Positions 19,431-57,445 of a stretch of DNA of 64,000 nucleotides are shown piece after piece (position 1 is the stretch's first letter; each line of letters starts with the position of its first letter). Position numbers and translations under genes: made by a program. The notes beneath the pieces are model-generated. The model was not told where the DNA came from and did no database searches. It saw nothing but the letters and a program-made list of their open reading frames with translations. The DNA lies in assembly GCA_043822105.1 (NCBI GenBank), contig JBDRCD010000003.1:870-64869 (forward strand). The letters run 5' to 3'. The DNA comes from an archaeon (lineage in GTDB: Archaea > Nanobdellota > Nanobdellia > Woesearchaeales > GCA-2686295).

Positions 19431-20009
19431 ATGTATATTTTTGAACATTTAAAACAAAAAAAGGTTTCAAATATGATTACAAAAGATACATTAATCGGAG
19501 AAGTTGTTGACAAGTTTCCAGCAGCAGTTGATATTCTTTTGGAAGAAGGAGTTCATTGTGTAGGCTGTGGAGCAGCAAATTTTGAAAGCGTTGAGCAGGG
19601 TCTTGAGGTCCATGGAAAAACCAAAGAAGAAATAGCTGATGTTGTTAAAAGAATGAATGTGGCAGTAAAAGAAGCTGAAAAAAACAAAGATACAATTACA
19701 ATTACAAAAATAGCAGCTGAGAAAGTTAAAGAAATTATGAAGAAGGATAAAAAACAAGGACAGCATCTTAGAATTTCTATTTCAGAAAGTTGCTGTGGAG
19801 CAGAGTATGGTTTGGAATTTGTAAAAGAAGAAAACAAAGACGATAAAGTATTTGTTGTAGAAGGAGTAAAATTTTTGGTTGATAAGAAAAGCTTTGCTTT
19901 GATGAAAGGATCAAAGGTTGATTTCATAGACAATATTCAGGGAACAGGTTTTAAGATAACCAATCCAAATGAGAAATCAGGTTGTGCCTGCGATGATTCT
20001 TCTTGTTAA
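19431..20009 (+). CDS. DUF1858 domain fused to an IscA/HesB-type Fe-S assembly domain
   Basis: N-terminal part: GEVVDKFPAAVDILLEEGVHCVGCG. C-terminal part: LRISISESCCGAEYGLEF...FKITNPNEKSGCAC. The likely start is MITKDT at 19473. Confidence 0.65.
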   Translation: MYIFEHLKQKKVSNMITKDTLIGEVVDKFPAAVDILLEEGVHCVGCGAANFESVEQGLEVHGKTKEEIADVVKRMNVAVKEAEKNKDTITITKIAAEKVKEIMKKDKKQGQHLRISISESCCGAEYGLEFVKEENKDDKVFVVEGVKFLVDKKSFALMKGSKVDFIDNIQGTGFKITNPNEKSGCACDDSSC

Positions 20010-38204: not shown

Positions 38205-38373
38205 TTATTGTTCTCTAGTATATCAACCATTATGGGAGTTATTTTTTCAAATAGTGTCTTTATCTTGCTTTTCTTTGCCAAAAGAATCCACCTTGCTTAC
38301 CTTGTTCTTGTATTTGGTTTTATTTATAGTTTTCGTTATATTTTTAAACAAAGGCTTGATTTCTCTGTTAGTC

Positions 38374-38447
38374 GGGCGGATAGCTCAGTCCAGTAGAGCG
38401 CTTCGTTCGCAACGAAGAGGCCGTGGGTGCGAATCCCACAGAGTCCA
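38374..38447 (+). tRNA. tRNA-Ala(CGC)-like second copy with a mispaired acceptor stem (possible pseudo-tRNA)
   Basis: Nucleotides 8-74 (38381..38447) are identical to 37321..37387. The 5-prime strand is GGGCGGA, as in tRNA-Ala(GGC), so pairs 5-68, 6-67 and 7-66 are mismatched. Confidence 0.6.
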
Positions 38448-42196: not shown

Positions 42197-43477
42197 ATGT
42201 TAGATATTAAGAATATAAGAGAAAACCCAAAAGAAGTAAGGAAAAACCTTGCAAAAAGAAAAGACCCTGCTCTTCTAAAGATATTTGACAACATTCTAAG
42301 TATTGATGAAAAGTACAGAAAAATTTTATACTCTGTTGAACAATTGAAAGCTCAAAGAAATAAAAGTAGTCTTCAGATTAACGAGCTGAAAAAAGCAAAG
42401 AAAGATTTCAAAAAAGTAATAGTGCAGGTTCAAAACATTAACAAAGAAATGGCCAGGAAAGAAGGAGAATTGGTAAATATAAGGGCAAAGTTAAATGGGG
42501 ATTTGATGCGCCTACCTAATCTACTGCATGAAAGCGTTCCTGTGGGAAAGGACGATTCCGACAATGTGGAAGTGAAAAAAGTTGGAAAACTTCCAAAGTT
42601 TGGTTTCAAGCCAAAGAATCACTTGGAACTGTTGGAGAATATAAAACTTATTGATTCGGAGCGAGCAAGTAAGAATACAGGCAGTGGATTTTTTTATCTA
42701 AAAGGAGATCTTGCTTTGCTGGACTACGCTCTTCAAATGTTTACAATAGATTTTCTGTTAAAAAGAGGATTTACACTTGTAGAACCACCACATATGATGC
42801 GAAGAAAACCCTATGAAGGAGTAACTGACCTCGCAGACTTTGAAAACGTGATGTATAAAATTGAAGGTGATGATTTATATCTAATTGCAACTTCAGAGCA
42901 TCCAATGGCTGCGATGCATATGAACGAAATACTCAACGCAGAGAATATGCCTATAAAACTCTGTGGAATAAGTCCATGCTATAGACGAGAAGTTGGTTCC
43001 CATGGAAAGTATACTAAAGGTCTCTTTAGAATGCATCAGTTTAACAAAATAGAACAGTTTGTTTTCTGTCACCCAAAGGATTCATGGAAAATGCATACAG
43101 AACTACAGAAAAACTCTGAAGATATATGCAAAGAACTGGGCATTCCCTATCGCGTTGTAAACGTATGCACAGGGGATTTAGGAACACTTGCAGCAAAGAA
43201 ATTTGACACAGAAATGCTCATGGCAGATGGAAACTATAGAGAAGTTGGTTCAAACTCTAACTGCACAGATTATCAGGCAAGAAGACTTGGAATAAGATAC
43301 CAGGAAAGCGAAGGAAAACCAGTGGCAGGATATGTTCATACATTAAACAACACAGCCGTTGCAACAAGTCGAATAATGATTGCCATAATTGAGAACAATC
43401 AGAACAGAGATGGTTCTATAAATATTCCTAAAGTTCTACAGAAGTATATGGGGAAAAAGTTTATTAAGAAGAATTAG
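42197..43477 (+). CDS. serS: Seryl-tRNA synthetase
   Basis: N-terminal coiled coil and class II motifs (YRREVGSHG..., TLNNTAVATSR). Confidence 0.9.
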   Translation: MLDIKNIRENPKEVRKNLAKRKDPALLKIFDNILSIDEKYRKILYSVEQLKAQRNKSSLQINELKKAKKDFKKVIVQVQNINKEMARKEGELVNIRAKLNGDLMRLPNLLHESVPVGKDDSDNVEVKKVGKLPKFGFKPKNHLELLENIKLIDSERASKNTGSGFFYLKGDLALLDYALQMFTIDFLLKRGFTLVEPPHMMRRKPYEGVTDLADFENVMYKIEGDDLYLIATSEHPMAAMHMNEILNAENMPIKLCGISPCYRREVGSHGKYTKGLFRMHQFNKIEQFVFCHPKDSWKMHTELQKNSEDICKELGIPYRVVNVCTGDLGTLAAKKFDTEMLMADGNYREVGSNSNCTDYQARRLGIRYQESEGKPVAGYVHTLNNTAVATSRIMIAIIENNQNRDGSINIPKVLQKYMGKKFIKKN

Positions 43478-43959
43478 AATATTCTGTTGAAATAATTCAT
43501 AACTTTCTTTGGAACGCTTTTTTCTGTTTTGAAAATATCTGGACTGACTTTAAGAGTGTCGTTCTCATGGGCAATGTACATGCTTCCTTTGTTCATAATG
43601 AAATAAACATCATTGAATTTTGCTGTTTCTGAATAACCATTATTGGCTCTTTTTTCAAGGCCAGAAAACATATCTTGGTTGGTTGGTAGCATGTCATAAT
43701 ATATTGGTAGTTTTTTTTTAGATTCGGAGTTGAGAAGATAGGTCTCGTTCTTTCCATAATCATTTGTTTCCCAATTAACTTCCAGTCCAGAAGGATTATT
43801 GAAGAAGTTTTTCTCAATTGGTTGTCCTCCGTCGAAAAGATTATAGTCTAACTTTCTTAGTTCTGAATGATTTACATATGCTATAAGAGCAACCGTGAAC
43901 AGACTAAGCTTAGCAAACACAGCCCAACTAAAGTTTCCAAGTTTTCCCATTTTTTTCAC
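43474..43959 (-). CDS. Membrane-anchored hypothetical protein
   Basis: ORF track. One N-terminal TM helix. Confidence 0.4.
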   Translation of the reverse strand: MKKMGKLGNFSWAVFAKLSLFTVALIAYVNHSELRKLDYNLFDGGQPIEKNFFNNPSGLEVNWETNDYGKNETYLLNSESKKKLPIYYDMLPTNQDMFSGLEKRANNGYSETAKFNDVYFIMNKGSMYIAHENDTLKVSPDIFKTEKSVPKKVMNYFNRIF

Positions 43960-44115: not shown

Positions 44116-44760
44116 CTATCTTTTATATTTGAGTTCTCGTAATCTTCTTTCTGTCTCTTCTTTTACTGCTCTCATACCTGCTCCATCATCATTTTTTTGA
44201 TTGAATGAATCCCTTACTTGTCTAAGAGATTTTCCATTGTGATAACGTGCGCTAGGATTTATCGCCAATGCTTCATCGAAGACTTTTATTGTAGTAGCCC
44301 AGTCACCTTGCAATCTAAATGAATCACCCAGTATCATATACCAGTAGTCATCCTTTGGGTATCTTTGTGTTCCCATGAAAAAAAATAACTGTCTGTTTTT
44401 TCTTTCTTTTTTTGTTCTTCCAAAACTATCTGTAGTCTTTTTTACTTTGTTCATGTAGGATTCATCTATATTTATTGCTTTCTCGAAATAATCCCAAGCT
44501 ACATTTTGTAATCCAAAGTATTTTTTGTTTAGCTCTTTTATTCCTTTATTATAGAGTTCTTCTGCTTCTTTTATTTTATCTTCGCTTAAGATAGTGGGTT
44601 TTGTTATTTTCTTTGGTTTAGTTTCCATATTATCTTTTTGTTGGATTGTATTTTCTTCTTTTGTTGGCTTTCTGTCTTTTATCTTGTTTTCTATTCCGCC
44701 AGATATTATCTCTGTTTCCCTGTCTTTGATTTTCTTCTCTATCCCGCCTTGTTCTACCAT
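44116..44760 (-). CDS. TPR-like protein, paralog 4, with a duplicated GGIE(K/N)KIKDR N-terminal motif
   Basis: MVEQGGIEKKIKDRETEIISGGIENKIKDRK... with TPR-like helices in the C-terminal half. Confidence 0.65.
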   Translation of the reverse strand: MVEQGGIEKKIKDRETEIISGGIENKIKDRKPTKEENTIQQKDNMETKPKKITKPTILSEDKIKEAEELYNKGIKELNKKYFGLQNVAWDYFEKAINIDESYMNKVKKTTDSFGRTKKERKNRQLFFFMGTQRYPKDDYWYMILGDSFRLQGDWATTIKVFDEALAINPSARYHNGKSLRQVRDSFNQKNDDGAGMRAVKEETERRLRELKYKR

Positions 44761-44761
44761 T

Positions 44762-45340
44762 TTACATGCTCAATATTTCATTTAAAGTTATATTTCTGTG
44801 GCGTATCTCTTCTGCTCTTCTTTTGTACTGCTCAAAAGGAACGCTGTACTCAGCTTCCTTGTCTGCCTCATTCCATCCTTGCTTGAATGCTTTAATGACA
44901 TTCCAATTGGTGTCTATATTATTGTTCAGATTGCTCTGCTTTACTGCTTGCCATCTATCAAAGTAGTCTTCCATCTTTTCCTTGTAAATCCTGAAAAGGA
45001 TATCTCTTGAATCTCTGTTATGTGGATTTATAAACAAAGATATCTTCAGCAGCTTCTCCTCTACTTCATCATTACCTTGACTTTCTGCGTTGGCCATAAT
45101 GTACTTTGAGAATCCTGAATCATGATAGAGCGTGGTTCTTCCTTGTTGGAGCAATTTCACTATTTTGACATATCGGTCAACTACTGAAGGAAAATCATCA
45201 GCAAGCAATTTATCTGCGATTGAATACTCCTCTTTTTGTATATGATATTTTATCTTTTGCTCTCTTGTCAGATTCTCATAACTAATTTCTCTCTTTCTGT
45301 TTTTGATTTTCTTTTCTATCCCGCCTGGTTCTGATATCAT
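44762..45340 (-). CDS. TPR-like protein, paralog 3, with the GGIEKKIKNR N-terminal motif
   Basis: MISEPGGIEKKIKNRKREISY... Confidence 0.6.
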   Translation of the reverse strand: MISEPGGIEKKIKNRKREISYENLTREQKIKYHIQKEEYSIADKLLADDFPSVVDRYVKIVKLLQQGRTTLYHDSGFSKYIMANAESQGNDEVEEKLLKISLFINPHNRDSRDILFRIYKEKMEDYFDRWQAVKQSNLNNNIDTNWNVIKAFKQGWNEADKEAEYSVPFEQYKRRAEEIRHRNITLNEILSM

Positions 45341-46251
45341 ATTTTATCCATCCCGTATCCTTTCATTATGGCTTTGTTTGCTTCTTCTTCATTCTTTCCT
45401 TGATCTCTTAACAAGTGTCCAAGGGCTCTTTGATTTGTTATATTTTTAGGATTAATCATTGTTGCAATTCTGTAACTATGCTCAGCTGTTTCTAAGTCAT
45501 TTAAGTATAGTTTTGAAATTAAACCTTTCAATCCCCAAGCTCTTCCGCTGTTTGGGTTTCTCAGTAAAATTCTGTTTAAAACCTTCATAGCTTTCTGATA
45601 ATCTTCTTTTTTGTAATATTCATTCATTTCACTGAACATTTCTTCTTCTCTTTCTGGTGATAATTTTTCAGCTCTTTTTGTTTCTGTTTTGAGTAATATT
45701 TTGTCAATTGAATCGAACAGATTTTTTCTATAATTCACAAATTCTTTTTTGAGTTCATCTCTTTTCATTCCTATTGTGTATTCTGTGTTGCTATCAGCTA
45801 TTGCTTTCTTATTCCCATAACTATCTTCTATTTCCAGAATTTCTTTGTATTGATCTTCTGGAACAGAGAATTGCTCCATTAAAATTCTTTTTCCTATAAG
45901 GTCATATGCTTGATCAGCTAATTTTTTTGCTTCTTGCACAGTCAATTCCTGATTTGTCTGTGGCACTGCAGGCATATCATCTCTATATTTTATGGCGTCT
46001 GCAACAACGCCTTTCAGCACAATTTCTAGACCTTTATCTGGTATTTGTCCTTCTTTGAATACAAATGAAATATTCTTTTCAAGACTAGCTAATGAATACT
46101 TTTCTTTGTTTTTTAAAGCAGCAACTATCTCTTCATCTTCTGAAAGTGGTTCTTCTATTGTTCTTCCTTTTATCTTCTCTTCTATTGCACCTGGAACTAC
46201 TTCTTTGTCTCTGTTTTTGATTTTTTTTTCTATCCTGCCTTGTTCTATCAT
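45337..46251 (-). CDS. TPR protein, paralog 2, with a duplicated motif
   Basis: MIEQGRIEKKIKNRDKEVVPGAIEEKIKGRT... with C-terminal TPR repeats (YQKAMKVLNRILLRNPNSGRAW...). Confidence 0.65.
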   Translation of the reverse strand: MIEQGRIEKKIKNRDKEVVPGAIEEKIKGRTIEEPLSEDEEIVAALKNKEKYSLASLEKNISFVFKEGQIPDKGLEIVLKGVVADAIKYRDDMPAVPQTNQELTVQEAKKLADQAYDLIGKRILMEQFSVPEDQYKEILEIEDSYGNKKAIADSNTEYTIGMKRDELKKEFVNYRKNLFDSIDKILLKTETKRAEKLSPEREEEMFSEMNEYYKKEDYQKAMKVLNRILLRNPNSGRAWGLKGLISKLYLNDLETAEHSYRIATMINPKNITNQRALGHLLRDQGKNEEEANKAIMKGYGMDKI

Positions 46252-46252
46252 T

Positions 46253-47143
46253 TTAAAAACCCATTTTCACTTTCATTATCTTCATGGAAGTTTTTATGCT
46301 TTCAACACCATGTCCTGCCTGGTCTTCAACAAGTCTCTTTTCCTTGAGTGCTGGAAGGTAGCTTGGTATCTGTTCTAATGCCATGTTGACATGCTGTATT
46401 GCCTTGTCAACTCTTCCGTTTTCTCTGTATATTTGGCTTAAACCAATATGAGCATCGATGTGTTCCGGATCCAATTCTAGGGCTTTTTTCAGTTCTCTCA
46501 ACGCAGCTGTTTTATTTTTCCATTTGAGATATGTAAAACCTATACCATATTGTGCTTTGATGTTTTCAGGATCTAATTTTAATGCTTTCTTGAAATAGCT
46601 TATAGCTTCAGTATGTCTGTTATTTATCTCAAGAGCAACACCTGTGAAGTATTGCATATGGACATTCTTTGGAGCTAGTTTAGCCGCTTTTTTTAGATTG
46701 GAAATTCCTTTGCTGTAGAAATCACTCTTTTTTTTCCGAACTCGTTTCTCCAGTATCTGATGCATGCCAAGATTGAACAGAGCGACGCTGTTGTTATCAT
46801 TTATCTTCAATGCTTTCTCATAAATCCTTATCTTGTTTTTAGAAACTCCTGCCCATTCAAAGACAACAGCATAATTGTTCCAACTCATAGAATCATAGCT
46901 ATCTTCTTTTACTTTTCCAAGATAATACTTTCTGGCTAACTGATAGTTATCATCACACATGTGTTTTATGCCCTCACTCTCATCTTTGTCTTTAATAATT
47001 CTAATATTCTCAAAACCTTTTACTTTTGGTAGAGGAATTATAATCTCATCCAATCCAGTACTGTTCTTAATAATAGTTCTCTCTACTTCTATTTCTCTGT
47101 TTTTGATTTTCTTCTCTATCCCACCACTTTCTACTTGTGCCAT
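46253..47143 (-). CDS. TPR protein, paralog 1, with the GGIEKKIKNR N-terminal motif
   Basis: MAQVESGGIEKKIKNREIEVE... with several canonical TPRs (EAISYFKKALKLDPENIKAQYGIG...). Confidence 0.7.
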   Translation of the reverse strand: MAQVESGGIEKKIKNREIEVERTIIKNSTGLDEIIIPLPKVKGFENIRIIKDKDESEGIKHMCDDNYQLARKYYLGKVKEDSYDSMSWNNYAVVFEWAGVSKNKIRIYEKALKINDNNSVALFNLGMHQILEKRVRKKKSDFYSKGISNLKKAAKLAPKNVHMQYFTGVALEINNRHTEAISYFKKALKLDPENIKAQYGIGFTYLKWKNKTAALRELKKALELDPEHIDAHIGLSQIYRENGRVDKAIQHVNMALEQIPSYLPALKEKRLVEDQAGHGVESIKTSMKIMKVKMGF

Positions 47144-48495
47144 GGCTTCACCTGATACTTTTCATAGAAATCTGCTTTTCCGCTTGTTATCTCATCAAGT
47201 GTGTATCTGGACTTTTTAGCATAGGCGCTGTCTTTTGCTCGTTCTCCCTGCTCAACTGTCATAGGTGGACCCCATAAGAATGCTTTCTCACAAATCATGT
47301 CTTCAGTGTTTTTAAAATCATTGGTAAGCACACTATTGAGAAGTTTATATTCATCTTCAGTAACTTTCTCGAATTGATTCATGGTATCTGTCGCTAACAA
47401 ATCCTTTTTTGGCATTGAAACGACATTTTTTTTCCTTCCCTGTTTGAGGAATGCATTATACGTGCTCACAATTTCAGCTATGGTCTCATGACTTATCAAA
47501 TTATAATTATTGTCTCCTCTGTATTTGTGAGTATTCTTTAGAATATCATCAAGCTTATTTTTCATTCTTAAAAATGTTTGATAATCTTCATTCTGATCAA
47601 CAGGCAAAGTCTTTGTCATCTTTGGTCCTTCACTTACATCTCTATAGAAGTCCTCTGTAGACTGGTAAGCAAAGTCTTCAAGATACTTTCCTTTTGGGAG
47701 TGTTTCAGGAGCCACTTTTGCGATGGCTCTCATCAAGATGTATTTAGTACCATCATCAACATCCAGTTTGTTGATTTCCTGCATTGCAAATTCAAAGTAG
47801 TCATATTTATCATCCCATAATGCATGAGGTGTTTGATGACTTGGATGCAATAACTGGAAGTACACAACTCCAATTGCAAATCTATCTGTCTGTGGTGTGA
47901 AAAGTTTTCCTTTTTGCTTTCCCGAGTTCTCCATTAGTTCGAAACTTCTATATCCTTCTGTGCTCTGATAACTGTATGTCATTTCTTCATTTGTTGCAGT
48001 ACCAAAATCAGATACCTTGTAGATTTTTCCTACACGAAGTATATTTGATGATTTTCCATCTCTGTGAAAAAGTCCCTTCTTATGTAAAGCTACATACCCT
48101 CTCAGTGTATGTCTTATTATTTTCTTTGCAGTTGCAGGGTCCATTACTTTTCCTTCTGTAATTAAATCATCAAGAATATCATCAACACTTTCATCTGCTT
48201 TCTCCATTAGAACTCCATAATATTTGCCAAATCTCAAAGGTTCATCGTCAAATATCCTTATTATATGTTCATGAGGTCCTACAATTCTTTTTACTCTGTA
48301 AGCTCTCTCACACTCTTCTTTTCCTGTTGGTCTTGTTGGAATCTTAAGAAAAAGTTCCATATTAGTGCTTGTTTCATAGACTTCTACAAGTGCTGTTCGA
48401 TTCCAGATGGTGATATCTATATCGTTTTTTGAGAATCTTTCACTCTTCTTGATAAGACTCCTGATATTCATTTCAAGCTTTCTTTTCGAACTCAC
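47131..48495 (-). CDS. Eukaryotic-like Ser/Thr protein kinase with a ~160-aa C-terminal extension
   Basis: Catalytic loop LFHRDGKSSNIL and SDFGTA (DFG). No clear Gly-rich loop. Confidence 0.75.
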   Translation of the reverse strand: MSSKRKLEMNIRSLIKKSERFSKNDIDITIWNRTALVEVYETSTNMELFLKIPTRPTGKEECERAYRVKRIVGPHEHIIRIFDDEPLRFGKYYGVLMEKADESVDDILDDLITEGKVMDPATAKKIIRHTLRGYVALHKKGLFHRDGKSSNILRVGKIYKVSDFGTATNEEMTYSYQSTEGYRSFELMENSGKQKGKLFTPQTDRFAIGVVYFQLLHPSHQTPHALWDDKYDYFEFAMQEINKLDVDDGTKYILMRAIAKVAPETLPKGKYLEDFAYQSTEDFYRDVSEGPKMTKTLPVDQNEDYQTFLRMKNKLDDILKNTHKYRGDNNYNLISHETIAEIVSTYNAFLKQGRKKNVVSMPKKDLLATDTMNQFEKVTEDEYKLLNSVLTNDFKNTEDMICEKAFLWGPPMTVEQGERAKDSAYAKKSRYTLDEITSGKADFYEKYQVKPWHK

Positions 48496-49379
48496 TTTGG
48501 AATCACCCCGTATAATAGTCCTGTTGCATTATCTCCTTTCATACTGTTCATGCTTACGTCATAGTCTTCTTTCTCCATTGTTTCTACTATCTTTTTTATC
48601 TCCACAGGATTGTTTATCCTGTCTATGAAGGTTTTTTCTATGTCTTCCAACCTGTTCGAACTGATAATATCAAGCATCTCTCTCTGTGTTACTGTCTTTG
48701 TGACTCCATCTGTGAATAGTCCAATTACCTGATTTTGTTTTGGTCTTATTTTATGCATATCAATTTTTAATCCAGAACCTTTTCCCAAATAACTTGTAAG
48801 TCCAAGTATTGAGCCTATTACTTGTTTTTTTGTAGGTGATAGCTTTTCTGCATATTCTGGGTAATGATGATGCTCATCTGTTACTTTTTCTACATATCTT
48901 TCTCCTTCCAAATTGAAAAGTGCAACCATTCCATCACCGACATGTGCTATGTAGCCTGTTTTTTTTGGAATAAAAAGGATGTCAATTGTGGTTCCTCCTT
49001 TATCCTCAAGAAAACTAACTTTTTTGTTTTCCATCATTGCATGTAGAGCATAGTTTGTATCGCTTATGGTTTCTTCAAGAATTGAAGGTATATTTTCTAA
49101 ACTCAGCTCTTTATTTTGAATATTTTCATAAGTTTCATTTAGTTCATTCACTATCATATCTACTGCGAACTTACTGCAGAATTTGCCACCTTCATATCCA
49201 CCCATTCCGTCTGCAACAACATAGATTCCTTTATCAACATCATAATAATAATTATCTTGATTTTCTTCTCTGTTTCCAATCTCAGAGAATGCAATGACAT
49301 GAGGAACTGCTTCTCGTTGTATAATTTTTGGTGTTCCCAACAATTCTATAATATTCTTTGCGTTTTTAATGAAGTTCAT
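48492..49379 (-). CDS. PP2C-family Ser/Thr phosphatase
   Basis: NQDNYY, VADGMGGYEGG, LFTDGV and GDNATGLL motifs. ATGA overlaps on both sides. Confidence 0.8.
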   Translation of the reverse strand: MNFIKNAKNIIELLGTPKIIQREAVPHVIAFSEIGNREENQDNYYYDVDKGIYVVADGMGGYEGGKFCSKFAVDMIVNELNETYENIQNKELSLENIPSILEETISDTNYALHAMMENKKVSFLEDKGGTTIDILFIPKKTGYIAHVGDGMVALFNLEGERYVEKVTDEHHHYPEYAEKLSPTKKQVIGSILGLTSYLGKGSGLKIDMHKIRPKQNQVIGLFTDGVTKTVTQREMLDIISSNRLEDIEKTFIDRINNPVEIKKIVETMEKEDYDVSMNSMKGDNATGLLYGVIPK

Positions 49380-51820
49380 TTTTTTATTACCTCTGCATCA
49401 AAAGTACTGAATTCTTTCATTCCTTCTACCTGTTCCATATGCATTTCTCCTTTTTCATGGAATATTGCATAGAGCTTATCTGGCTCTTGCGCTGCCATTA
49501 TGACATTCTTGTTAGGCATCCATATATTTGCATCTTGAAGATCAGAGTCTTTAAGTTCATAGTAGATAGAAGGCTTTTCTGCAAACAAATTCTTTTTGTT
49601 CTTGAAATTCTCTACTTTTATCCCTTCTTCAGTAAGGGTTGCTACTTGAAATCCTCTGTTGTCTATGTGAATAAAATCAAATGAATCATATCTTGTTTCA
49701 AATGATACTGGGTTAAACTTTCCTTCCAAGTCGACAGCTACAACGCCTTCTCCATTTTCGGTTGTGTAAAACAACACTTTTTCTATCTCAGAAGTTTTTT
49801 GTACAGCACCAATGTTTTCTTCTGAAGTGTAGATTTCTTCCATTATCTCATCGTCGAAAAGACTGACTTTGTTGTTGGAAGTTACTAGTATTTTTCCCTG
49901 ATAGGGTGTGAGTGAAATTATATCATCTTCAACTCTTTGGAGATCAAAGAATTCATTTGAGTCCCTGTTATACTTTGAGATGGTAGTCTCTCCATTTTCT
50001 TTTTTCAGGAAATAGATTTCATTATTGTTCACAACCATCTCTTCAAGCCTAAAATCAACATCCTCACTTGTTATAGGCTTTGACACATATGTAGGTGTTG
50101 AGTCATTGTTAATATCAAAAGTGAATATTCTGTACTCCATTGTCTTGTTACCATGTGGTCTTTCTGCGACAACAAATATTTCTTTATCAGATACTTTAAA
50201 TTCTCCGATTCCCATTTTTTGATGCTCTCTTTCTCTCCAGTCATATTCTCCTTCTTCTCGTGGGATACTTACTGTATATTCGAGAGCTCTGTGTATGAGA
50301 TTATTCTTTAATGGAGTACCCAGAATAACTCTTTTCTGTTCGCTAGAAGGTAGGTATATTTCTGTGTCGATTGATTTTGCGAGTTTTGTTTTTAGTTTCT
50401 CTTCTTTATTACCTATCAATTCTTTCACAATATTCTTTGCACCTTCAATTATCACTTCGACTAAAGTTTCTTGCTCTTTCTTTTCAGGTATTTCAGGTAA
50501 TCCATCTGTTCTTGGATTTAATTCTTGTATATATCCTTTTTCAGCGAGTAAACTTGTAAGCTCTTGAACTATTTTTGTTCCCTTTCTAAAGTCTTTTTCA
50601 CATTCAGAACTTAAACTCTCCATAATTGCTACTTCAGGAGTTATTACTGTTCCTCCTTTTATTTCAAAATTAAGTCCTGCAAAACCATTAAATTCTTTGT
50701 GATAAATGCTTCCTCTGAAAGTTTTTTCTGGTTTTTCTGAGACTATTGCAGCAGTCAATGGTAGAAGAGTATTTCTAATTGTGTCAATGGAAGTAACTTC
50801 ATTTTTTTCTTTGAAATCAATACCATATTTTTTGACTTTGTCTAATAATAGATTTCCTATGTTTTCACTTTCTTCACCAAAAATGACTTGAAATGAAATA
50901 CTTCCAAACTTAATTTTTGTGTATTCAAAGGCCATGAATTCTCCGTGACTTCCATATATTGGTGGAGATTCTATTTCTCCTTTGTATACTTCCCCTGTGA
51001 AATCAAAATAAACGTCCTTTATTGCAGTCTTTAATCTTGCGACATCCGTATCTGCAGGTCCTATTATTCTGTTTACAGGAATATCTGCTTCTGCGGCGAA
51101 TACATAATTTGTGATATCAATGTCATTAACTAAATTAACAACTGTTCCTTGATAGCCTTTCAGGACACTGCCTAAATGTTTTAATCCAACTATGTTTCCC
51201 GGGAGAAGATTGAATCTGCTTATGTTAATTCCTGTTTCTTGCTGGAATCCGGTTATTATGGCTTCCAAATCTAGACTTTGTTTCAGAGCTGTATTCAAAT
51301 AAATCAACGCGTCTTGATAACTTTTTGGATTGCCTTTTATGGTTGTTCTGATTTTATTAACTACTTCTTGTTTACTTAGATTTTCGAGATTTTTTGCAAT
51401 ATTTTTGAAATTATATCTTGAAAACAAAACTAACATATCTGATTCTTCGCTGTTGTCTTTTGCATTCTCTGTTATTTCAGTCAAATCCTCTATTTGCCAA
51501 AATCTCTTAAATTTGACTTTTTCTACTATTTTGTCATAATCTTTCCATTCTAAAGAATTGAAGTCATTGTGAAACTCTATTGCTGCATCTTCAACACTAT
51601 TTCTAATCCAAACATTGACTTGTTTTATATTGGAATCTGGTTCTAGAATTAATGGCTCTAATCCTCTGACATAGTTTTTTCCGATATTGCCATAGCCTAT
51701 GACGTTTATTGTGTAATCTCTCCAAGAATCCTTTGTCTGAGCAGTACCTCTTTTAACCTGTTTTTCAAGAAATTCTAAAAACTCCTTTCTTTCTGTTTTG
51801 TCTTCTTCTTCGGCTCCCAA
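49376..51820 (-). CDS. LDH/MDH-like Rossmann domain fused to a ~380-aa beta-rich (propeller-like) C-terminal domain
   Basis: INVIGYGNIGKNY, NLVNDIDITN...NRIIGPADTDVARLK and GSHGEFMAFEY parallel the LDH/MDH motifs (GxGxxG, NPVD...RVIG..T.LD..R, GEHG). TTG start. Confidence 0.55.
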   Translation of the reverse strand: MGAEEEDKTERKEFLEFLEKQVKRGTAQTKDSWRDYTINVIGYGNIGKNYVRGLEPLILEPDSNIKQVNVWIRNSVEDAAIEFHNDFNSLEWKDYDKIVEKVKFKRFWQIEDLTEITENAKDNSEESDMLVLFSRYNFKNIAKNLENLSKQEVVNKIRTTIKGNPKSYQDALIYLNTALKQSLDLEAIITGFQQETGINISRFNLLPGNIVGLKHLGSVLKGYQGTVVNLVNDIDITNYVFAAEADIPVNRIIGPADTDVARLKTAIKDVYFDFTGEVYKGEIESPPIYGSHGEFMAFEYTKIKFGSISFQVIFGEESENIGNLLLDKVKKYGIDFKEKNEVTSIDTIRNTLLPLTAAIVSEKPEKTFRGSIYHKEFNGFAGLNFEIKGGTVITPEVAIMESLSSECEKDFRKGTKIVQELTSLLAEKGYIQELNPRTDGLPEIPEKKEQETLVEVIIEGAKNIVKELIGNKEEKLKTKLAKSIDTEIYLPSSEQKRVILGTPLKNNLIHRALEYTVSIPREEGEYDWREREHQKMGIGEFKVSDKEIFVVAERPHGNKTMEYRIFTFDINNDSTPTYVSKPITSEDVDFRLEEMVVNNNEIYFLKKENGETTISKYNRDSNEFFDLQRVEDDIISLTPYQGKILVTSNNKVSLFDDEIMEEIYTSEENIGAVQKTSEIEKVLFYTTENGEGVVAVDLEGKFNPVSFETRYDSFDFIHIDNRGFQVATLTEEGIKVENFKNKKNLFAEKPSIYYELKDSDLQDANIWMPNKNVIMAAQEPDKLYAIFHEKGEMHMEQVEGMKEFSTFDAEVIKK

Positions 51821-51854
51821 TGCTCACACCGAACCTGTAATCTTGTCGACATTT

Positions 51855-51870
51855 AAATAGTTAACTATTT
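51855..51870. promoter_or_regulatory. Perfect 16-bp palindrome AAATAGTTAACTATTT in the 67-bp spacer between the 813-aa and 814-aa genes
   Basis: Overlaps a TATA-like tttaaata on the minus strand, about 35 nt upstream of the TTG start. Confidence 0.5.
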
Positions 51871-51887: not shown

Positions 51888-54329
51888 TTAATCTACTCTT
51901 TGCCCTTCTAAAACAGCCATTAAGTCTATTTCATTCTCTAGAGAGTAAGCGCAGACCTGATTATCTTCAAAGAAGCAGTCTTTTGCACAGTATTTTCCTG
52001 TCTTTTTTTCCATCTCTTTCTTGATATCAAGTGATAACTGCAGGTCACCATTCATAATTCTTTCCTTAAATTCAACTGTTTTGTAAACTTCGTGCATGAC
52101 TTCACGTCTGTACCATTCGTGAGGTTCGATGATTGAAATCCCTTCATATTCTTGTTTTCTATAAGAATTTATATTGAGAAACTTTGGCTGATCTTCTTCA
52201 AAGTTAAGGAACTGGTCGTTGAAAGAGTTCTTATCCAGCATGACTATGATATTTCCTGTTTTATAGCCTTGTTCTTTCATGAATTTCTCAACCATCATTC
52301 CGTAGAATGTGACTTGTTTTTTGTAGTAAGTCTCCATTGTACTAATTTTTCTGTTTGTTTTTTTGTCGATAATAACTATATCATAAACATTATTATCATC
52401 TTTCAGAAAAAACAATGTATCTGGGTGAAAAGATATGGTAAAATCTTTATCTGTTATTGGATTATGTAGAGTATCTTCAAACAGTATCTCGCAGTAATGG
52501 TCAGAAGGAACCGGCTCGTCAACTCCCGGAATTAAGGTTAATGTCTCATAATGTACTAGTCCATCAAATGGTTGATAGGTAAGCTCATGTAATTTTGTAC
52601 CTCTGTGAGCTGCAATAGGTTCTCTTAGTATGTGGTCTAAAAATCTGTGAAACTCTCCTTCTCTACCCTTTTGTACAATTGGTTTTAGAATATCATAAGT
52701 ATCTAATCTCATTCCTCTGGCTATGACTCTTTGTCTAGCACAGTTGACATGTGCTGAAAGTTCAGAACCTCTGAAATCTGCCGAAAGATCCAGTTTCTCG
52801 GATTGTTCTGATAAGAAAGTTGCTTTCCTTCCAAAGAAATTCTCTGATTTCAAATCAAATATTGGTGTTTTTCCAGCAATGTATTCTTGCCATGGAATAA
52901 CTCTCTTATCTTCACTAGTTATATTGGCTTTTATGGTTCCTTCGAAGAACATTAGTTCGACAAGTCTAGGCTCAACTCTTATGTTACCTGAAGTTGTTCT
53001 TACCATGTATTTATTGACTATTTCAAGACCTCTTTTTGTTATGAATTTCGGAACAAGATCTGTCTGGTTAGGATGTCTTCCTTTTATGTTTTCTTCCAAT
53101 AGCACCCAAGGATATTCTTTTGATTGCTTGTATCTTATGATGTTTGCTTTTGGTACTTTTATTCTTGTATATTTCTTTGCATGATTTCCAGTCCATATCG
53201 ATTCGGCTGTCTGCAGAAATCCAGTAAGCTTATTTATTGCTATCCCAGAATGAATGCCGTGGGCTTCTTGTTTTCCTGAAAGAATGCCTTCGAATCCTCC
53301 AATGTACTGAATTGGAATGTTGAGGCCGGAAAACTTAATGGCCTGTTTTATTATGTCAGAAGAGGCGCTGGTCTTTTCCATGTATAGAGGCAGTCCTTCC
53401 AGGTCATAATTGTTAATCATGTTCTTTATACTTGGCTCCAGAATCTCAAGGTATTTTTTCCATTTTACGGCCATCACCATCTTTCCGAGTTTTACAAGTC
53501 GGGCATGATGTTTTACAAACTCATCAACAGTTGTTAGTTTAGGTCTGTACACATCTTTTTTGAAATCAGCAGGACTCTTTGTGACTGATTTTTTTATGGG
53601 CTTAACATCTAACAGCCTTTCCCGATACCTGAATGTGGGGATAGAATTATCAGCGGGCTTTGTCAGTGATCCTATGGCGACCGCTCCAACTTTCTCAATA
53701 ATTTCTTTATACTCATTATATAGTACTTCATCTTCCTTTAACTCATACAATGATAATCTTTTGAAATCATTATGAGCATACAAATTTTCGAAAGTATATT
53801 TTTTCAGATCTTCAGCCAGAATATCTTCCAGTTTTATATTTCCTTCATTATCTCTTTTAATCAGTGGAACAAAGGTCCATGGTTGCATGAACATCAGAAC
53901 TATTTTATCAAGAAATTCAGGATCGAGTGTTTTAGCGATATCCAGAAGAGAATTTGTGAATCTGAATTCAGGTGAATAAGGGTCCAATCCGTCCCTTAGG
54001 CCATGTTCATCGATACTCAAGCCATTGGTTGGTATTATTATTTTATCTTCAAAGAATTTTTGTTCATTTTTCAGTTTTTCATACAACTTTCTCTCTGCGA
54101 ACCTAAACTTTTTCATTCGCCCGATTACTTGGGGCTCGAATGCTTTTACAATAATCATTTCCAGCAGGTTTATCATCTCTGCATTTTCCTTTGGATCGGC
54201 AGCAAAGGTGTTTAGATATGGCAGGAAATCTATGGATGTCCAAATGTTTTCCTTATCAAAAACATCAGAAAGCATATTGAACAGTGTATACTGTTGTTTA
54301 ACTATGTGAATGTTGTCAACACTTGGCAT
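51888..54329 (-). CDS. Large protein: ~530-aa unknown N-terminal region plus a Cas4/RecB-like PD-(D/E)xK nuclease C-terminal domain with Cys residues suggestive of an Fe-S cluster
   Basis: LSAHVNCARQ (N-terminal Cys), GTKLHEL, ISFHPD, YDIVIIDKK (D/ExK), KQVTFY (QxxxY) and KYCAKDCFFEDNQVCAY (three C-terminal Cys). No P-loop seen. Confidence 0.55.
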   Translation of the reverse strand: MPSVDNIHIVKQQYTLFNMLSDVFDKENIWTSIDFLPYLNTFAADPKENAEMINLLEMIIVKAFEPQVIGRMKKFRFAERKLYEKLKNEQKFFEDKIIIPTNGLSIDEHGLRDGLDPYSPEFRFTNSLLDIAKTLDPEFLDKIVLMFMQPWTFVPLIKRDNEGNIKLEDILAEDLKKYTFENLYAHNDFKRLSLYELKEDEVLYNEYKEIIEKVGAVAIGSLTKPADNSIPTFRYRERLLDVKPIKKSVTKSPADFKKDVYRPKLTTVDEFVKHHARLVKLGKMVMAVKWKKYLEILEPSIKNMINNYDLEGLPLYMEKTSASSDIIKQAIKFSGLNIPIQYIGGFEGILSGKQEAHGIHSGIAINKLTGFLQTAESIWTGNHAKKYTRIKVPKANIIRYKQSKEYPWVLLEENIKGRHPNQTDLVPKFITKRGLEIVNKYMVRTTSGNIRVEPRLVELMFFEGTIKANITSEDKRVIPWQEYIAGKTPIFDLKSENFFGRKATFLSEQSEKLDLSADFRGSELSAHVNCARQRVIARGMRLDTYDILKPIVQKGREGEFHRFLDHILREPIAAHRGTKLHELTYQPFDGLVHYETLTLIPGVDEPVPSDHYCEILFEDTLHNPITDKDFTISFHPDTLFFLKDDNNVYDIVIIDKKTNRKISTMETYYKKQVTFYGMMVEKFMKEQGYKTGNIIVMLDKNSFNDQFLNFEEDQPKFLNINSYRKQEYEGISIIEPHEWYRREVMHEVYKTVEFKERIMNGDLQLSLDIKKEMEKKTGKYCAKDCFFEDNQVCAYSLENEIDLMAVLEGQRVD

Positions 54330-54381: not shown

Positions 54382-57300
54382 GTGAAAGAGAATAATTCAT
54401 CAGAGGAGATTAGAGTAGTAACTCATTTAGCTACAGATAGAAGTTTGATTGGTTCTTTGAATTCTAATGTAAAGATTGCTTCTTGGGCTGTAGATACAGA
54501 AAATAACAGATTTGTTGATCCACGAACAGATGTTCTAAGCATACCTTTGAGATTTCCGACAGACCATTTTAAGGAGGAAGGTAGACCAGAAGCACAGGAT
54601 CTTATAAGAGCGAGAATTACTGAATTTAGAGACATGACAAAGAAGGATCTTCAGACAATAATTGACAAGAAGAATGCTATGCTTGAACAAAGAAATCCTG
54701 GAACAAAGGCTGCAAAGAAGATAGAAGATGAGATAAAAGAGATAAGAAAAGTACAATACAGAATTAATAGATTGATAAAAAGAGGTGAAACAGCGAGGAA
54801 TAAATACGGGGACTGGGTTTATGTTATTCAATCTCCTCACTTGAGCAATATTCAGCTGACGACAGTAAACGATCTTTATCATAACAATAAACACTACACC
54901 AAAACAACTGATCTCATAAAACTTGATGTTGGATTTCCATACAATGAAATGTTATTTGTAGATGGGAAGAGTAATACTATAGGGAAACACTTTGCAACAC
55001 TATCAGATAAAAAACACTACAATCTTGATACATTTGTCAACAGCTCTATGATGGCAAGCGATTTGGAAACAACCGAATGGCAAAAACTTATCTACTCTCC
55101 AGAAGACAAGCTGAAAAGCACTCTGGAACTGATAAAAGAGTACAAGCTTGCAGAGAATGAAGAGAATCTGACAGAACTTATGGAAAACACAAAGTCTCAG
55201 ATTCTTGAATTGGTGAGAAAGAAAAAAGATAGTGTAAGAGAAGAACAGATTGTTATTGGCACTATAGCTTATGCTGAGAATCCTCTCAAGTTTTGGCAGG
55301 AAAAGGACCTGTCGCAGTTAAAGACTTTCCTGATAACGGATATGCCTGTTGAAGATTCCCTTGATGTTGATATACCTTTAATTGGGGGAACCATAAACCC
55401 AGAGATATACAAAGTCAGCAACCATGAAGAAATAATGAAAGTCATGAGCGATATAACTCAGGAATACAATCCCTTCTCAATGACTGGGCATTTCTACTTT
55501 AAATTTGACAATGGAAAACCAGGGGAACTTGGTTTGGAATATAATACCGGAATAGATGGTGAAAAACCAGAATATCAATGGGGGTTGCTTAACAAATTTG
55601 TACAGATAAGAATTGCAAGAGGAAGGCTTGATCTTGACCCGGCGCTGTATTACCAACATTATGCTCCATGGACTGTGAATAATAAGCTAGATACTGTTTT
55701 TGAAGACCTAACAGGTGTGTTTGAGAAGAAAGAGATGACTCATACAGAGCTAGAGGAAAGAATACAGACAATACTTAAAGGGGGTATTTCCGAGAAAGAG
55801 AAACTTGAATTTGGAAGGCTTCTGCATAAGTATGCTGTAAGGGATTCAATAAAATCTCTGATAAATGGGGTGATTCTTCTTCCTGAAGTGGCTGCATTGT
55901 CTATGCTTTATAGGACTCCATTTCACAGAGTATGCTCAACTGACAAGAAAAGACTTTCTGAAGAATACTGGAATAAGAGAAGTCTGGAAGATACACTGAC
56001 TTTCCGTTATGAACATCCAAGGAATGAGAAACTTACTATGAGTTTTCAACTGTCAAAAACCTACAAGAAAGCAAAGTCTGGATTCATTGAATGGGAGGAT
56101 TTCAAGATATCGGATTGGCATGAAAGAATTTTAAAACACTACGGAAACTTTGGTAATTATAAAAAAGGATTCCAGAAAGCAAGGCTGATATATCTTCATC
56201 CTCATGTCAAAGCTCTCAAAGATTTCTTTGCTGATGATGAGAATGCCATGCGAATATTTAATTTGAATTTTGACGATAGAAAAAGCAGGATAAGAATGTA
56301 CAAAGGACTGGAAGCGATAGTAGAATATCCTTTGTTTAAACTATTGGATCTTTCAACTCAGAAACTTTACAATTATATGACTAACAATGGGCATCCAGAT
56401 TTGGAAGAGAAATTCAGCAGGGAATTTGGGCTTGATCTCACGGAATCCAACATAAGGAAGTATCATAATGATATAGTGAGATATTTCAGAAACATTGGTA
56501 AGGGCTTGAAGAATGAAGAAGTTCTCAACACCTACAAGAATTTCATACTGGTAAAAGAAAGCGATACTATAGATGATTTCTGCAATAGAATAGAGGAATT
56601 CAACTTTGGGACTGTTATGGGAAAGATGGATGCTATATCAATTGGAAACCATAAGTTTGGAGGAGTGATTGACGGCCAGATGATGAATTTTGGATTTTCA
56701 GACCCTAAATCCAATAAAGGCAAGAAGAATGAAGCTGCAAAAGAGATTCTCCAACTAGTTATGGACAAGGTATTGAGAGAGAAAGATTATGCTTCTGCAT
56801 TAAAGGCTGTTAGAGACATTTCTTGGGGGATACAGAACAGTATGATAGAAGAAGACGCTCTACAGTACAAGATAGAAGCGAAGAGGAATTTTTCAGAGTA
56901 TTCTTCAGCGGCTACGCTATGGGCAAAAGATGAATATGTTAAGAGGAGAATAAAGAAGGGAGAGATTATGATATACCATGCAGACACTAATGAACTGCTT
57001 GCAGATATGCTAGGAATCGCAGTTGATTTCTCGTCTGGACAGCCAATGTATTTTTCTACAGATAATGGCAAAAATATGCTAGAGAAAGATTTTGAAGATG
57101 AGTTGGAAGATAACTATAAGATGAAAAAGAAAGGCAAAATAAGAGAGTTGGTAGAATGCGTTGTGCCAACGACTCTAAAGCAATACCCTATTCTTTTTGA
57201 AGAGATGTCGGACATGGAGTTTGACTATGATGAACAGATAAGAGAACAGCAGGTAATGAACAGGGTTATATGTGGTGTAGCCACCGATGAACATATAGAT

Positions 57301-57405: not shown

Positions 57406-57445
57406 TCTCGCAAAACATATAAACCATTGAATTTTACAATTGCTC

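What the first reader, a model, noticed from the sequence alone, without database searches (positions are those of the whole stretch)
44116..47143. Four tandem TPR paralogs share a conserved N-terminal peptide GGIEKKIKNR, duplicated in two of them
**The four N-termini**
- Paralog 1: MAQVESGGIEKKIKNREIEVE
- Paralog 2: MIEQGRIEKKIKNRDKEVVPGAIEEKIKGRTIEE
- Paralog 3: MISEPGGIEKKIKNRKREISY
- Paralog 4: MVEQGGIEKKIKDRETEIISGGIENKIKDRKPT

**Interpretation**
- Beyond this ~15-aa tag the proteins diverge strongly in sequence and length (192-304 aa), although all look TPR or helical-repeat.
- A conserved N-terminal tag on otherwise divergent paralogs resembles a docking, sorting or modification signal.
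- The pattern is conserved head plus variable body, as in polymorphic protein families.
- The genes lie directly downstream of a kinase and a PP2C phosphatase, and of a protein with a propeller-like domain that could bind such a peptide.
- I do not recognise this motif from any described family.
Basis: seen in the sequence. Interest (0 to 1): 0.7.

Follow-up and report, generated by a model that had tools for sequence, protein, structure and literature searches.

The report
Shared N-terminal peptide in kinase operon
Four adjacent genes in an uncultivated DPANN archaeon, co-transcribed with a protein kinase and phosphatase, begin with the same 10-15 residue peptide although the rest of each protein is unrelated; the peptide is real, under selection, undescribed and so far seen in only two genomes, and is most likely a docking handle, though that is untested.

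Summary
Four abutting minus-strand genes (44116-47143) start with G-[GRA]-I-E-x-K-I-K-x-R, and two of them carry the motif twice, 16 residues apart. The motif occurs six times in the window and nowhere outside these heads (0.12 expected). Outside the head the four proteins are not detectably related, so uniform divergence after tandem duplication is rejected.

Only p1 is a solid TPR protein. p2 and p4 score below Pfam cut-offs and p3 has no hit.

One related contig keeps the same gene order. There the gene at p1's exact position starts MVQEGDIEKKL but has a beta-helix body. So the head is kept while the body changes.

Codon comparisons indicate selection on the peptide, plus extra DNA similarity among the four first copies.

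Searches of 1.84 billion protein representatives, GTDB genomes, JGI metagenomes, viral contigs, Pfam, NCBIfam, PADLOC, PHROGs and Rfam found no other instance and no described family.

Best reading (inferred, not shown): a lineage-specific short docking peptide that ties interchangeable repeat proteins to a partner in the kinase/PP2C operon. It is new but very narrowly distributed, so interest is moderate.

The parts
46253..47143 (-). p1: head-tagged protein, 296 aa. Single head, low-confidence region 23-100, five-TPR core at about residues 100-260.
   Evidence: ORF. Pfam TPR_17/19/2/1 at E 1e-19 to 1e-20. AF2 TPR core pLDDT 80-95, head coil pLDDT 27-37. Its start codon overlaps the kinase 3' end.
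47096..47125 (-). Head copy of p1 (GGIEKKIKNR), followed by EIEVE.
45337..46251 (-). p2: head-tagged protein, 304 aa, double head, weak C-terminal TPR-like region.
   Evidence: ORF. TPR hits below Pfam cut-offs. No homologue among 5.8e9 proteins except itself.
46210..46239 (-). First head copy of p2 (GRIEKKIKNR).
46162..46191 (-). Second head copy of p2 (GAIEEKIKGR), 16 residues after the first.
44762..45340 (-). p3: head-tagged protein, 192 aa, single head, body without any family match.
   Evidence: ORF. No Pfam, NCBIfam, PADLOC or PHROG hit. ATGA overlap with the p2 stop.
45296..45325 (-). Head copy of p3 (GGIEKKIKNR).
44116..44760 (-). p4: head-tagged protein, 214 aa. Double head, about 40-residue K/E/T/P-rich linker, one sub-threshold TPR.
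   Evidence: ORF. TPR_1 26.9 bits against a cut-off of 27.8.
44719..44748 (-). First head copy of p4 (GGIEKKIKDR).
44671..44700 (-). Second head copy of p4 (GGIENKIKDR), 16 residues after the first.
47131..48495 (-). Hanks-type Ser/Thr kinase, 454 aa, with a conserved C-terminal extension of about 220 aa of unknown fold. Candidate receptor of the heads.
   Evidence: Pfam Pkinase 3e-18. HRDGKSSN and DFG motifs read in the sequence. One homologue at 56-58% identity conserved over the full length, including the extension.
48492..49379 (-). PP2C-type Ser/Thr phosphatase, 295 aa.
   Evidence: Pfam PP2C_2 1.7e-14. NCBIfam Stp1-like 1.9e-29, below cut-off. 63% identical orthologue in L012.
49376..51820 (-). 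814-aa first gene of the operon. It has a remote LDH/MDH-like region (about residues 170-385) and a C-terminal part predicted all-beta (about 537-800). Candidate hub or receptor.
   Evidence: PDB phmmer: 16 of the 17 hits listed are LDH/MDH, E 0.006-0.64. TIGR01771 5.7e-6. No Pfam hit. AF2 unusable, pLDDT 38, strands only in the C-terminal part. C-terminal homologue in L012.
51852..51859 (-). TATA-box-like TATTTAAA 32-39 nt upstream of the TTG start of the 814-aa gene. Likely promoter of the seven-gene operon (read by eye).
   Evidence: Sequence. All downstream genes overlap or abut.

Best explanation
**What it is.** The head is a lineage-specific short linear peptide module of about 10-15 residues. 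Its consensus is G-G-I-E-K-K-I-K-[N/D]-R-x-x-E-[I/V], and it is sometimes present twice at a fixed 16-residue spacing. It sits at the flexible extreme N-terminus of otherwise unrelated repeat proteins: TPR, TPR-like, one unknown body and, in a relative, a beta-helix.

**Where it sits.** These proteins are encoded in one tightly coupled operon in a Woesearchaeota-type DPANN archaeon. The order is an 814-aa LDH-like/beta-rich protein, a PP2C phosphatase, a Hanks-type kinase, then p1 to p4.

**Proposed mechanism.** The head is a common docking handle. It tethers interchangeable adaptor or substrate proteins to one shared partner made from the same mRNA. The partner is most plausibly the kinase's conserved 220-aa C-terminal extension or the C-terminal domain of the 814-aa protein. 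Two heads would give higher avidity. This would be the non-covalent counterpart of archaeal kinases that carry TPRs fused to the catalytic domain.

**Shown.**
- The head exists, is N-terminal, and is confined to these genes.
- It is conserved while the bodies are unrelated.
- It is kept across two genomes on different bodies.
- It is linked to the kinase module in both.
- Comparisons of older copies indicate selection on the amino-acid sequence.

**Inferred.** That it binds anything, and what it binds.
For: - **Head versus body.** BLASTP aligns only residues 1-17 to 1-42 (E 1e-3 to 5e-9), and bodies give no hit better than E 0.08. Smith-Waterman z-scores are 7.6-14.5 for heads and at most 2.35 for bodies, about 0 for p3.
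- **Second genome.** L012 keeps the order 814-aa homologue, PP2C (63% identity), kinase (56-58%). The next gene starts MVQEGDIEKKLEE. Its ATG lies in the same conserved CCATGG (Pro-Trp codons of the kinase) as p1's. Its body is a right-handed beta-helix (Pfam 2.2e-8). Its N-terminus is the best non-self hit of the head profile among 1052 six-frame segments.
- **Peptide-level selection.** First copies compared with second copies and L012 share codons at about the random expectation (45 of 80 against 39.4) while keeping the amino acids.
- **Internal duplication.** The motif is repeated at identical spacing in p2 and p4. This fits a binding motif and not an initiation signal.
- **Flexible tail.** The head is predicted as a low-confidence coil detached from the confident TPR core. 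In p4 it is followed by a K/E/T/P-rich linker.
- **One operon.** All seven genes overlap or abut.
- **Precedent.** Sulfolobus ePKs ArnC, SiRe_2030 and SiRe_2056 carry fused TPRs thought to mediate protein-protein contacts (PMC5300886, PMC5682000).
Against: - No binding partner was tested, and no multimer prediction was possible.
- There are only two loci. The L012 head is diverged (IEKKLEEM instead of IEKKIKNR) and scores weakly (6 bits).
- The four first copies share rare codons GGC, GGG and ATC more than expected (41 of 54 against 26.8, P about 0.002). Part of the similarity is therefore due to DNA-level processes.
- Hydrophobic-moment analysis gives no clear helix or strand signature.
- The receptor domains have no confident fold.
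- The low pLDDT of the head in a single-sequence model is weak evidence of disorder.
Confidence: 0.42

Rival explanations
1. **Concerted evolution only.** The heads are similar because a 50-95-nt 5' segment is homogenised by gene conversion, or was recently spread by recombination among tandem genes. An example would be duplication of a two-gene unit, single-head gene plus double-head gene. On this view the peptide has no specific function.
For: - First copies share rare codons (GGC 14%, GGG 6%, ATC 13% usage): 41 of 54 identical codon pairs against 26.8 expected, P about 0.002.
- The 51-nt repeat is at 80-82% identity, and p2/p4 share 95 nt at 79%.
- The junction TAA-A-ATG is identical at p1/p2 and p3/p4, and the array alternates single, double, single, double heads.
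Against: - The head is kept in a second genome whose flanking proteins are only 56-63% identical, and there it sits on a different body.
- First and second copies keep the amino acids with near-random codon sharing.
- Conversion explains similarity between copies. It does not explain why a frame-preserving peptide persists at the N-terminus of every gene.
Confidence: 0.15
2. **Regulatory signal rather than docking handle.** The head is a phospho-acceptor context for the adjacent kinase, an N-terminal degron, or the site of another modification. It would set the stability or activity of p1-p4.
For: - The genes are immediately adjacent to and translationally coupled with a kinase and a PP2C.
- Ser, Thr or Tyr lies within 1-7 residues after the core in 5 of 6 window copies and in L012 (read).
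- The position at the extreme N-terminus suits N-degron-type recognition.
Against: - The invariant core (I-E-K-K-I-K-x-R) has no Ser, Thr or Tyr.
- The positions of nearby hydroxyl residues are not conserved.
- No protease or modification enzyme is encoded in the operon.
Confidence: 0.15
3. **Localisation peptide.** The head is a basic amphipathic segment that binds membrane or nucleic acid and brings the proteins to a common place, not to a protein partner.
For: - The heads are Lys/Arg-rich with two or three Ile/Val. Net charge is 0 to +4 in five of six window copies.
- The N-terminal position resembles membrane-targeting sequences (own knowledge).
Against: - Helical hydrophobic moment is unremarkable (percentiles 1-92) and mean hydrophobicity is strongly negative.
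- Acidic residues are conserved inside the motif.
- The L012 head is net negative.
Confidence: 0.1
4. **mRNA-level element.** The conserved 5' coding sequence acts on the RNA, for instance as a purine-rich unstructured region that promotes re-initiation at tightly coupled start codons. The peptide would be a by-product.
For: - All four genes start within -4 to +1 nt of the preceding stop, or overlap it.
- There is DNA-level excess similarity among first copies.
- The sequence is A-rich.
Against: - The motif is duplicated 48 nt downstream in p2 and p4, where no initiation occurs.
- The equally coupled PP2C and kinase genes lack it.
- Synonymous differences occur within the motif, and the amino acids are kept in L012 with different codons.
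- There is no Rfam match.
Confidence: 0.07

Closest known systems
Encapsulation peptides of bacterial microcompartment cargo, and encapsulin cargo-loading peptides (own knowledge)
   Same: A short conserved terminal peptide, joined by a poorly conserved linker to unrelated proteins encoded in one operon. It tethers them to a shared partner and is sometimes repeated.
   Different: No shell or encapsulin protein was seen among the operon proteins scanned. There is no sequence resemblance. The amphipathic-helix signature is not clear. The context is a kinase/phosphatase operon in a DPANN archaeon.
Linear docking motifs for protein kinases and phosphatases, such as the MAPK D-motif (own knowledge)
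   Same: A basic-hydrophobic short motif lying outside the phospho-acceptor site, found on diverse partners of one kinase. The genes here sit next to a Hanks-type kinase and a PP2C.
   Different: By reading, the D-motif pattern (basic cluster, spacer, hydrophobic-x-hydrophobic) fits p1 and, with alternative anchors, p3 and p4a. It does not fit p2a, p2b or p4b. The kinase is a remote prokaryotic Hanks-type enzyme and not a MAPK. No binding has been shown.
Archaeal Hanks-type kinases with fused TPR domains (ArnC/Saci_1193, SiRe_2030, SiRe_2056; PMC5300886, PMC5682000)
   Same: An archaeal Ser/Thr kinase is associated with TPR modules thought to mediate protein-protein contacts.
   Different: Here the TPR and other repeat proteins are separate genes. 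Each carries the shared N-terminal peptide, and there are several bodies of different kinds. The kinase shares only generic catalytic-domain similarity.
Polymorphic protein families with a conserved N-terminal region and variable C-terminal domains (own knowledge)
   Same: A conserved head with bodies that are replaced or diverge beyond recognition. The genes lie in tandem, and the conserved 5' DNA could mediate recombination.
   Different: The head is only 10-15 residues and is not a folded trafficking domain. There is no signal peptide, secretion system, toxin or immunity gene in the operon. The bodies are repeat scaffolds.

Membership tests
TPR repeat proteins (Pfam clan TPR) | Significant match to TPR repeat models above the gathering score | tested here: met
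   This row is for p1 only. TPR_17, 19, 2, 1, 11, 16, 8 and 14 all score above cut-off, E down to 6e-20. The AF2 helical-repeat core has pLDDT 80-95.
TPR repeat proteins (Pfam clan TPR) | The same criterion, applied to p2 and p4 | tested here: inconclusive
   The best hits are TPR_1 at 23.6 bits (p2) and 26.9 bits (p4) against a cut-off of 27.8. Body-to-body Smith-Waterman z-scores against p1 are 1.5-2.1.
TPR repeat proteins (Pfam clan TPR) | The same criterion, applied to p3 | tested here: not met
   No TPR hit at E up to 0.1. No NCBIfam, PADLOC or PHROG hit. Body z-scores against the other bodies are -0.06 to 0.61.
Paralogous gene family (common descent of the whole genes) | Detectable similarity along the gene bodies | tested here: not met
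   With residues 1-40 removed, no BLASTP hit is better than E 0.08. The best shuffle-calibrated z-score is 2.35, for p2-p4. Only the heads are demonstrably homologous.
Hanks-type (eukaryotic-like) Ser/Thr protein kinase | Pkinase domain with catalytic HRD-x-K-x-x-N and DFG motifs | tested here: met
   Pfam Pkinase at 66.6 bits against a cut-off of 31.7. HRDGKSSN and SDFGTA are read in the translation. A glycine-rich loop is not obvious.
PP2C phosphatase | PP2C or PP2C_2 domain above the gathering score with metal-binding Asp motifs | tested here: met
   PP2C_2 at 54.3 bits against a cut-off of 24. DGMGG, GDG, TDG and GDN motifs are read in the sequence.
WD40 or other beta-propeller (C-terminus of the 814-aa protein) | Propeller fold or repeat-family match | tested here: inconclusive
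   No Pfam hit. The AF2 model has mean pLDDT 38, with only short strands in residues 537-800. A fold search was not run because the model is unusable.
Double-glycine leader peptides (bacteriocin-type) | A 15-30-residue leader ending in Gly-Gly, plus a C39 peptidase or ABC exporter nearby | tested here: not met
   The Gly-Gly lies at residues 5-8, and the G-G is part of the internally repeated motif. No peptidase or transporter domain is found in the operon proteins.
MAPK-type D-motif docking site | Basic cluster, 2-4 residue spacer, then hydrophobic-x-hydrophobic | tested here: inconclusive
   Checked by reading the sequences only; no regex was run. p1 (KIK-NRE-IEV) fits, and p3 and p4a fit with alternative basic anchors. 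p2a, p2b and p4b do not (sequences).
Known anti-phage defence systems (PADLOC) | System-specific protein models for several components | tested here: not met
   Only generic kinase-domain matches (mad6, PD-T4-6, Stk2) and one weak TPR match. PP2C, the 814-aa protein and p2-p4 have no hit.
Any described protein or RNA family for the head itself | A match covering residues 1-35 of p1-p4, or the corresponding RNA | tested here: not met
   No Pfam, NCBIfam, PADLOC or PHROG hit lies in the head region. There is no Rfam match. The head profile finds only p2, p3 and p4 in 1.84e9 representatives.

The most novel reading that the evidence does not exclude
A DPANN archaeal lineage uses a eukaryote-style short linear motif system. 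One about 15-residue N-terminal peptide, single or tandem, plugs interchangeable repeat-protein adaptors (TPR, beta-helix and others) into a kinase/PP2C/LDH-like hub. The conserved 5' DNA doubles as a recombination joint, which lets bodies be swapped behind a constant handle.
Probability: 0.3. Interest if true: 0.6.

Novelty: new variant of a known kind. Interest (0 to 1): 0.42.

Why it matters
- **If the head is a docking handle.** It would be a rare prokaryotic, and specifically DPANN, example of a modular short-linear-motif interaction system around a Ser/Thr kinase and phosphatase pair. It would show how such a module changes its partners: a 15-residue handle is kept while the body is swapped.
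- **Testability.** The idea can be tested with a synthetic peptide and four or five recombinant proteins.
- **Limits.** The motif is known from only two loci of uncultivated organisms, and no phenotype or pathway is attached. The immediate impact is therefore modest.

Tried and rejected
- **Strict back-translated motif in GTDB genomes.** 11 hits, all chance. Five are the C-terminal helix of a long, RarA-like bacterial ORF in KSB1 and Cytophagia MAGs.
- **Start-anchored pattern M-x-[EQ][EQ]-G-x-IEKK.** 52 GTDB hits and 75 JGI metagenome hits, all unrelated. They are winged-helix 'EEGLIEKK' segments, pyruvate-phosphate dikinase, or spurious ORFs.
- **Viral contigs.** None, by motif or by kinase.
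- **Relatives through neighbours.** The 814-aa protein and the kinase alignment found nothing in GTDB or JGI.
- **Head profile, word-indexed search of 5.8e9 proteins.** Nothing at E up to 10, so it is uninformative for such a short profile.
- **AF2 of the 814-aa protein.** Unusable (pLDDT 38), so no fold search was run.
- **Amphipathic-helix idea.** The hydrophobic moment is inconclusive, so no conformation is claimed.
- **Bacterial-type promoter and terminator scan.** At background level, and not relevant to an archaeon.
- **Defence-system, viral and Rfam explanations.** No support.
- **Low-complexity and uniform-divergence explanations.** Rejected.
- **Exact look-up of the source contig for p2.** Not on record.
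Full report
**1. Observation**

The region 44116-47143 holds four minus-strand ORFs of 296 aa (p1), 304 aa (p2), 192 aa (p3) and 214 aa (p4). In each, the ATG is the first possible start, 1-6 codons after an in-frame stop, so the conserved peptide is truly N-terminal.

The genes are tightly coupled:
- The p1 ATG lies 13 nt inside the 3' end of the kinase gene.
- p1/p2 and p3/p4 are joined by TAA-A-ATG.
- p2/p3 are joined by an ATGA overlap.

In the six-frame translation of the whole window, G-x-I-E-x-K-I-K and I-E-x-K-I-K-x-R occur six times, all in these heads. p1 and p3 have one copy. p2 and p4 have two copies spaced 16 residues apart.

Within-protein shuffles of 51 window proteins give 0.12 expected IE.KIK matches (maximum 2) against 6 observed. 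A much looser pattern occurs 9 times, 6 of them in the heads. The motif is therefore not a general Lys/Glu-rich feature of this genome.

At the DNA level:
- The 30-nt consensus has 4 hits at up to 3 mismatches against 0 expected.
- The repeat finder reports a 51-nt unit present 4 times at about 80-82% identity, and 95 nt at 79% between p2 and p4.

**2. Head versus body**

BLASTP between the four proteins aligns only residues 1-17 to 1-42 (E 1e-3 to 5e-9). With the first 40 residues removed, no pair gives a hit better than E 0.08.

Shuffle-calibrated Smith-Waterman z-scores:

| Comparison | z-score |
|---|---|
| Heads within the window | 7.6-14.5 |
| Bodies, any pair | at most 2.35 |
| Bodies, pairs involving p3 | about 0 |

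Uniform divergence after tandem duplication is therefore rejected.

'Four TPR paralogs' is only partly right:
- p1 is a clear five-TPR protein (Pfam E about 1e-20, AF2 core pLDDT 80-95).
- p2 and p4 have single TPR hits just below Pfam's cut-offs.
- p3 matches nothing.

The alternation of single, double, single, double heads, together with the identical TAA-A-ATG junctions, suggests an ancestral two-gene unit that was duplicated. If so, the bodies have since diverged or been replaced beyond recognition.

**3. Context**

The upstream genes overlap one another and p1:
- A Hanks-type kinase (47131-48495). Pfam Pkinase scores 66.6 bits and the HRD and DFG motifs are present. It has a C-terminal extension of about 220 aa with no family match.
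- A PP2C phosphatase (48492-49379).
- An 814-aa protein (49376-51820).

The 814-aa protein has no Pfam hit. Residues about 170-385 are remotely LDH/MDH-like: 16 of the 17 PDB hits are LDH or MDH at E 0.006-0.64, and TIGR01771 matches at 5.7e-6. Its C-terminal third is predicted as strands only, but the AF2 model is unusable (pLDDT 38).

A TATA-like TATTTAAA lies 32-39 nt upstream of the 814-aa start. This suggests a seven-gene operon spanning 44116-51820.

PADLOC, PHROGs, NCBIfam and Rfam give only generic kinase, PP2C and TPR matches, and nothing for the head.

The window is archaeal. Cbf5 is at most about 72% identical to Woesearchaeota/Nanoarchaeota MAGs, which places it in DPANN.

**4. Distribution**

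| Search | Result |
|---|---|
| p2 against 5.8e9 proteins | only itself |
| Kinase against 5.8e9 proteins | one relative, P0003, 56-58% identity, on a 3.9-kb Logan contig (L012) |
| Kinase family and 814-aa protein in GTDB representatives, JGI metagenomes, viral contigs | nothing |
| Two back-translated tag patterns in the same collections | 11 + 52 + 75 + 0 hits, all unrelated on inspection |
| 42-column head profile, exhaustive HMMER on 1.84e9 representatives | only p4, p2 and p3 at E up to 0.001 |

The head in this form is thus known only from this genome.

**5. The second genome**

L012 keeps the order 814-aa homologue, PP2C (63% identity), kinase. The next gene starts MVQEGDIEKKLEEMTKDSG.

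- Its ATG is embedded in the same conserved CCATGG (the kinase's Pro-Trp codons) as p1's ATG. The two genes are therefore positional orthologues.
- Its N-terminus is the best non-self hit of the head profile among 1052 six-frame segments, although it scores weakly at 6 bits.
- Head-to-head z-scores against the window heads are 3.7-6.6.
- Its body is a right-handed beta-helix (Pfam Beta_helix 2.2e-8) with no similarity to p1 (z 1.05).

The head is kept across genomes while the body differs. This is the strongest support for 'constant head, variable body'.

**6. Peptide-level or DNA-level constraint**

Codon usage from the window's genes gives the expected codon sharing.

- **First copies against second copies and L012.** Identical codons at same-amino-acid positions number 45 of 80 against 39.4 expected. 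Synonymous sites are essentially randomised while the residues are kept. This indicates purifying selection on the peptide.
- **Among the four first copies.** Sharing is 41 of 54 against 26.8 expected (simulation P about 0.002). It includes rare codons GGC, GGG and ATC. There is therefore also a DNA-level component, either gene conversion or recent spread of the head segment.
- **p2 and p4 second copies.** These share their own codon choices (AAG, ATA). The double head thus predates the p2/p4 split.

**7. Mechanism**

The head is a short N-terminal segment, predicted as a low-confidence coil detached from the TPR core in p1. In p4 it is followed by a low-complexity linker. It is sometimes duplicated at fixed spacing, it sits on unrelated scaffolds, and it lies in the same operon as a kinase, a phosphatase and a large two-part protein.

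The best-supported reading is a shared docking handle that brings interchangeable adaptor or substrate proteins to one partner of the operon. The candidates are the kinase's conserved C-terminal extension and the 814-aa C-terminal domain. Sulfolobus kinases with fused TPRs give a covalent precedent (PMC5300886, PMC5682000).

This step is inference. No binding test or multimer prediction was possible, and the hydrophobic-moment analysis does not settle helix against strand.

The rivals are:
- Concerted evolution without a function.
- A phospho-site, degron or other modification signal.
- Membrane or nucleic-acid targeting.
- An mRNA-level re-initiation element.

The last is disfavoured for two reasons. 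The motif is duplicated internally where no initiation occurs, and it is absent from the equally coupled PP2C and kinase genes.

**8. Novelty and verdict**

No described family covers the head. The general principle is known: a conserved terminal peptide on diverse proteins of one operon. This instance differs in its sequence, its kinase/PP2C context and its DPANN host. I file it as a new variant of a known kind.

The function is untested and the distribution is two loci, so interest is moderate (0.42). The most novel reading still open is a swappable-adaptor docking system in which the head DNA serves as a recombination joint. I give that a probability of about 0.3.

Noticed in passing
window 18364-18996 (-): An ECF-type sigma-70 factor ORF lies in an otherwise archaeal (DPANN) contig. 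Pfam Sigma70_r2, Sigma70_r4_2 and Sigma70_ECF all score above their cut-offs. A bacterial-type sigma factor is unexpected in an archaeon, so this may be a horizontally acquired gene.
   Followed up: partly
window 19977-20954 (-): A lytic transglycosylase ORF (Pfam SLT_2, E 6.9e-21) with an N-terminal hydrophobic segment lies about 1 kb from the sigma-factor ORF. It is a murein-degrading enzyme in a DPANN genome and could act on bacterial cell walls.
   Followed up: partly
window 49376-51820 (-): The 814-aa protein has an unusual architecture: a remote LDH/MDH-like Rossmann region (residues about 170-385) fused to a large all-beta C-terminal part. It has no Pfam family and only one known homologue, in L012.
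   Followed up: partly
window 51888-54329 (-): An 813-aa orphan ORF with no Pfam hit. Its C-terminal part has a weak PHROG 'CRISPR/Cas system associated' match (residues 573-706, E 6e-4). By eye it shows an IIDKK / QxxxY / terminal Cys cluster that resembles Cas4/RecB-type nucleases. It has its own TATA-like box.
   Followed up: partly
window 54382-57405 (+) and 57440-59512 (+): A 1007-aa ORF with no Pfam match sits directly upstream of a Rad50/SbcC-like ATPase (AAA_23, E 2.2e-20). Both are divergently transcribed from the 813-aa ORF. This may be a DNA-repair cluster with an unrecognised partner.
   Followed up: no
L001, L002, L007, L008, L010 (GTDB loci): The string GIEKKIKDRL recurs at the C-terminal end of a long, RarA/MgsA-like ORF ('...YYRPTENGIEKKIKDRL...') in KSB1 and Cytophagia MAGs. 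This is a coincidental match in an unrelated context and not an N-terminal tag.
   Followed up: yes
window 38361-38446 (+): The tRNA-Trp gene is 86 nt long, probably because it contains an intron, as is common in archaea.
   Followed up: no
window 43474-43959 (-): A 161-aa ORF lies 156 nt downstream of p4. It has an N-terminal hydrophobic anchor, no family match and no head. A GGTGA lies just before an internal ATG at 43950, so the true start may be that ATG. Whether it belongs to the operon is unclear.
   Followed up: no
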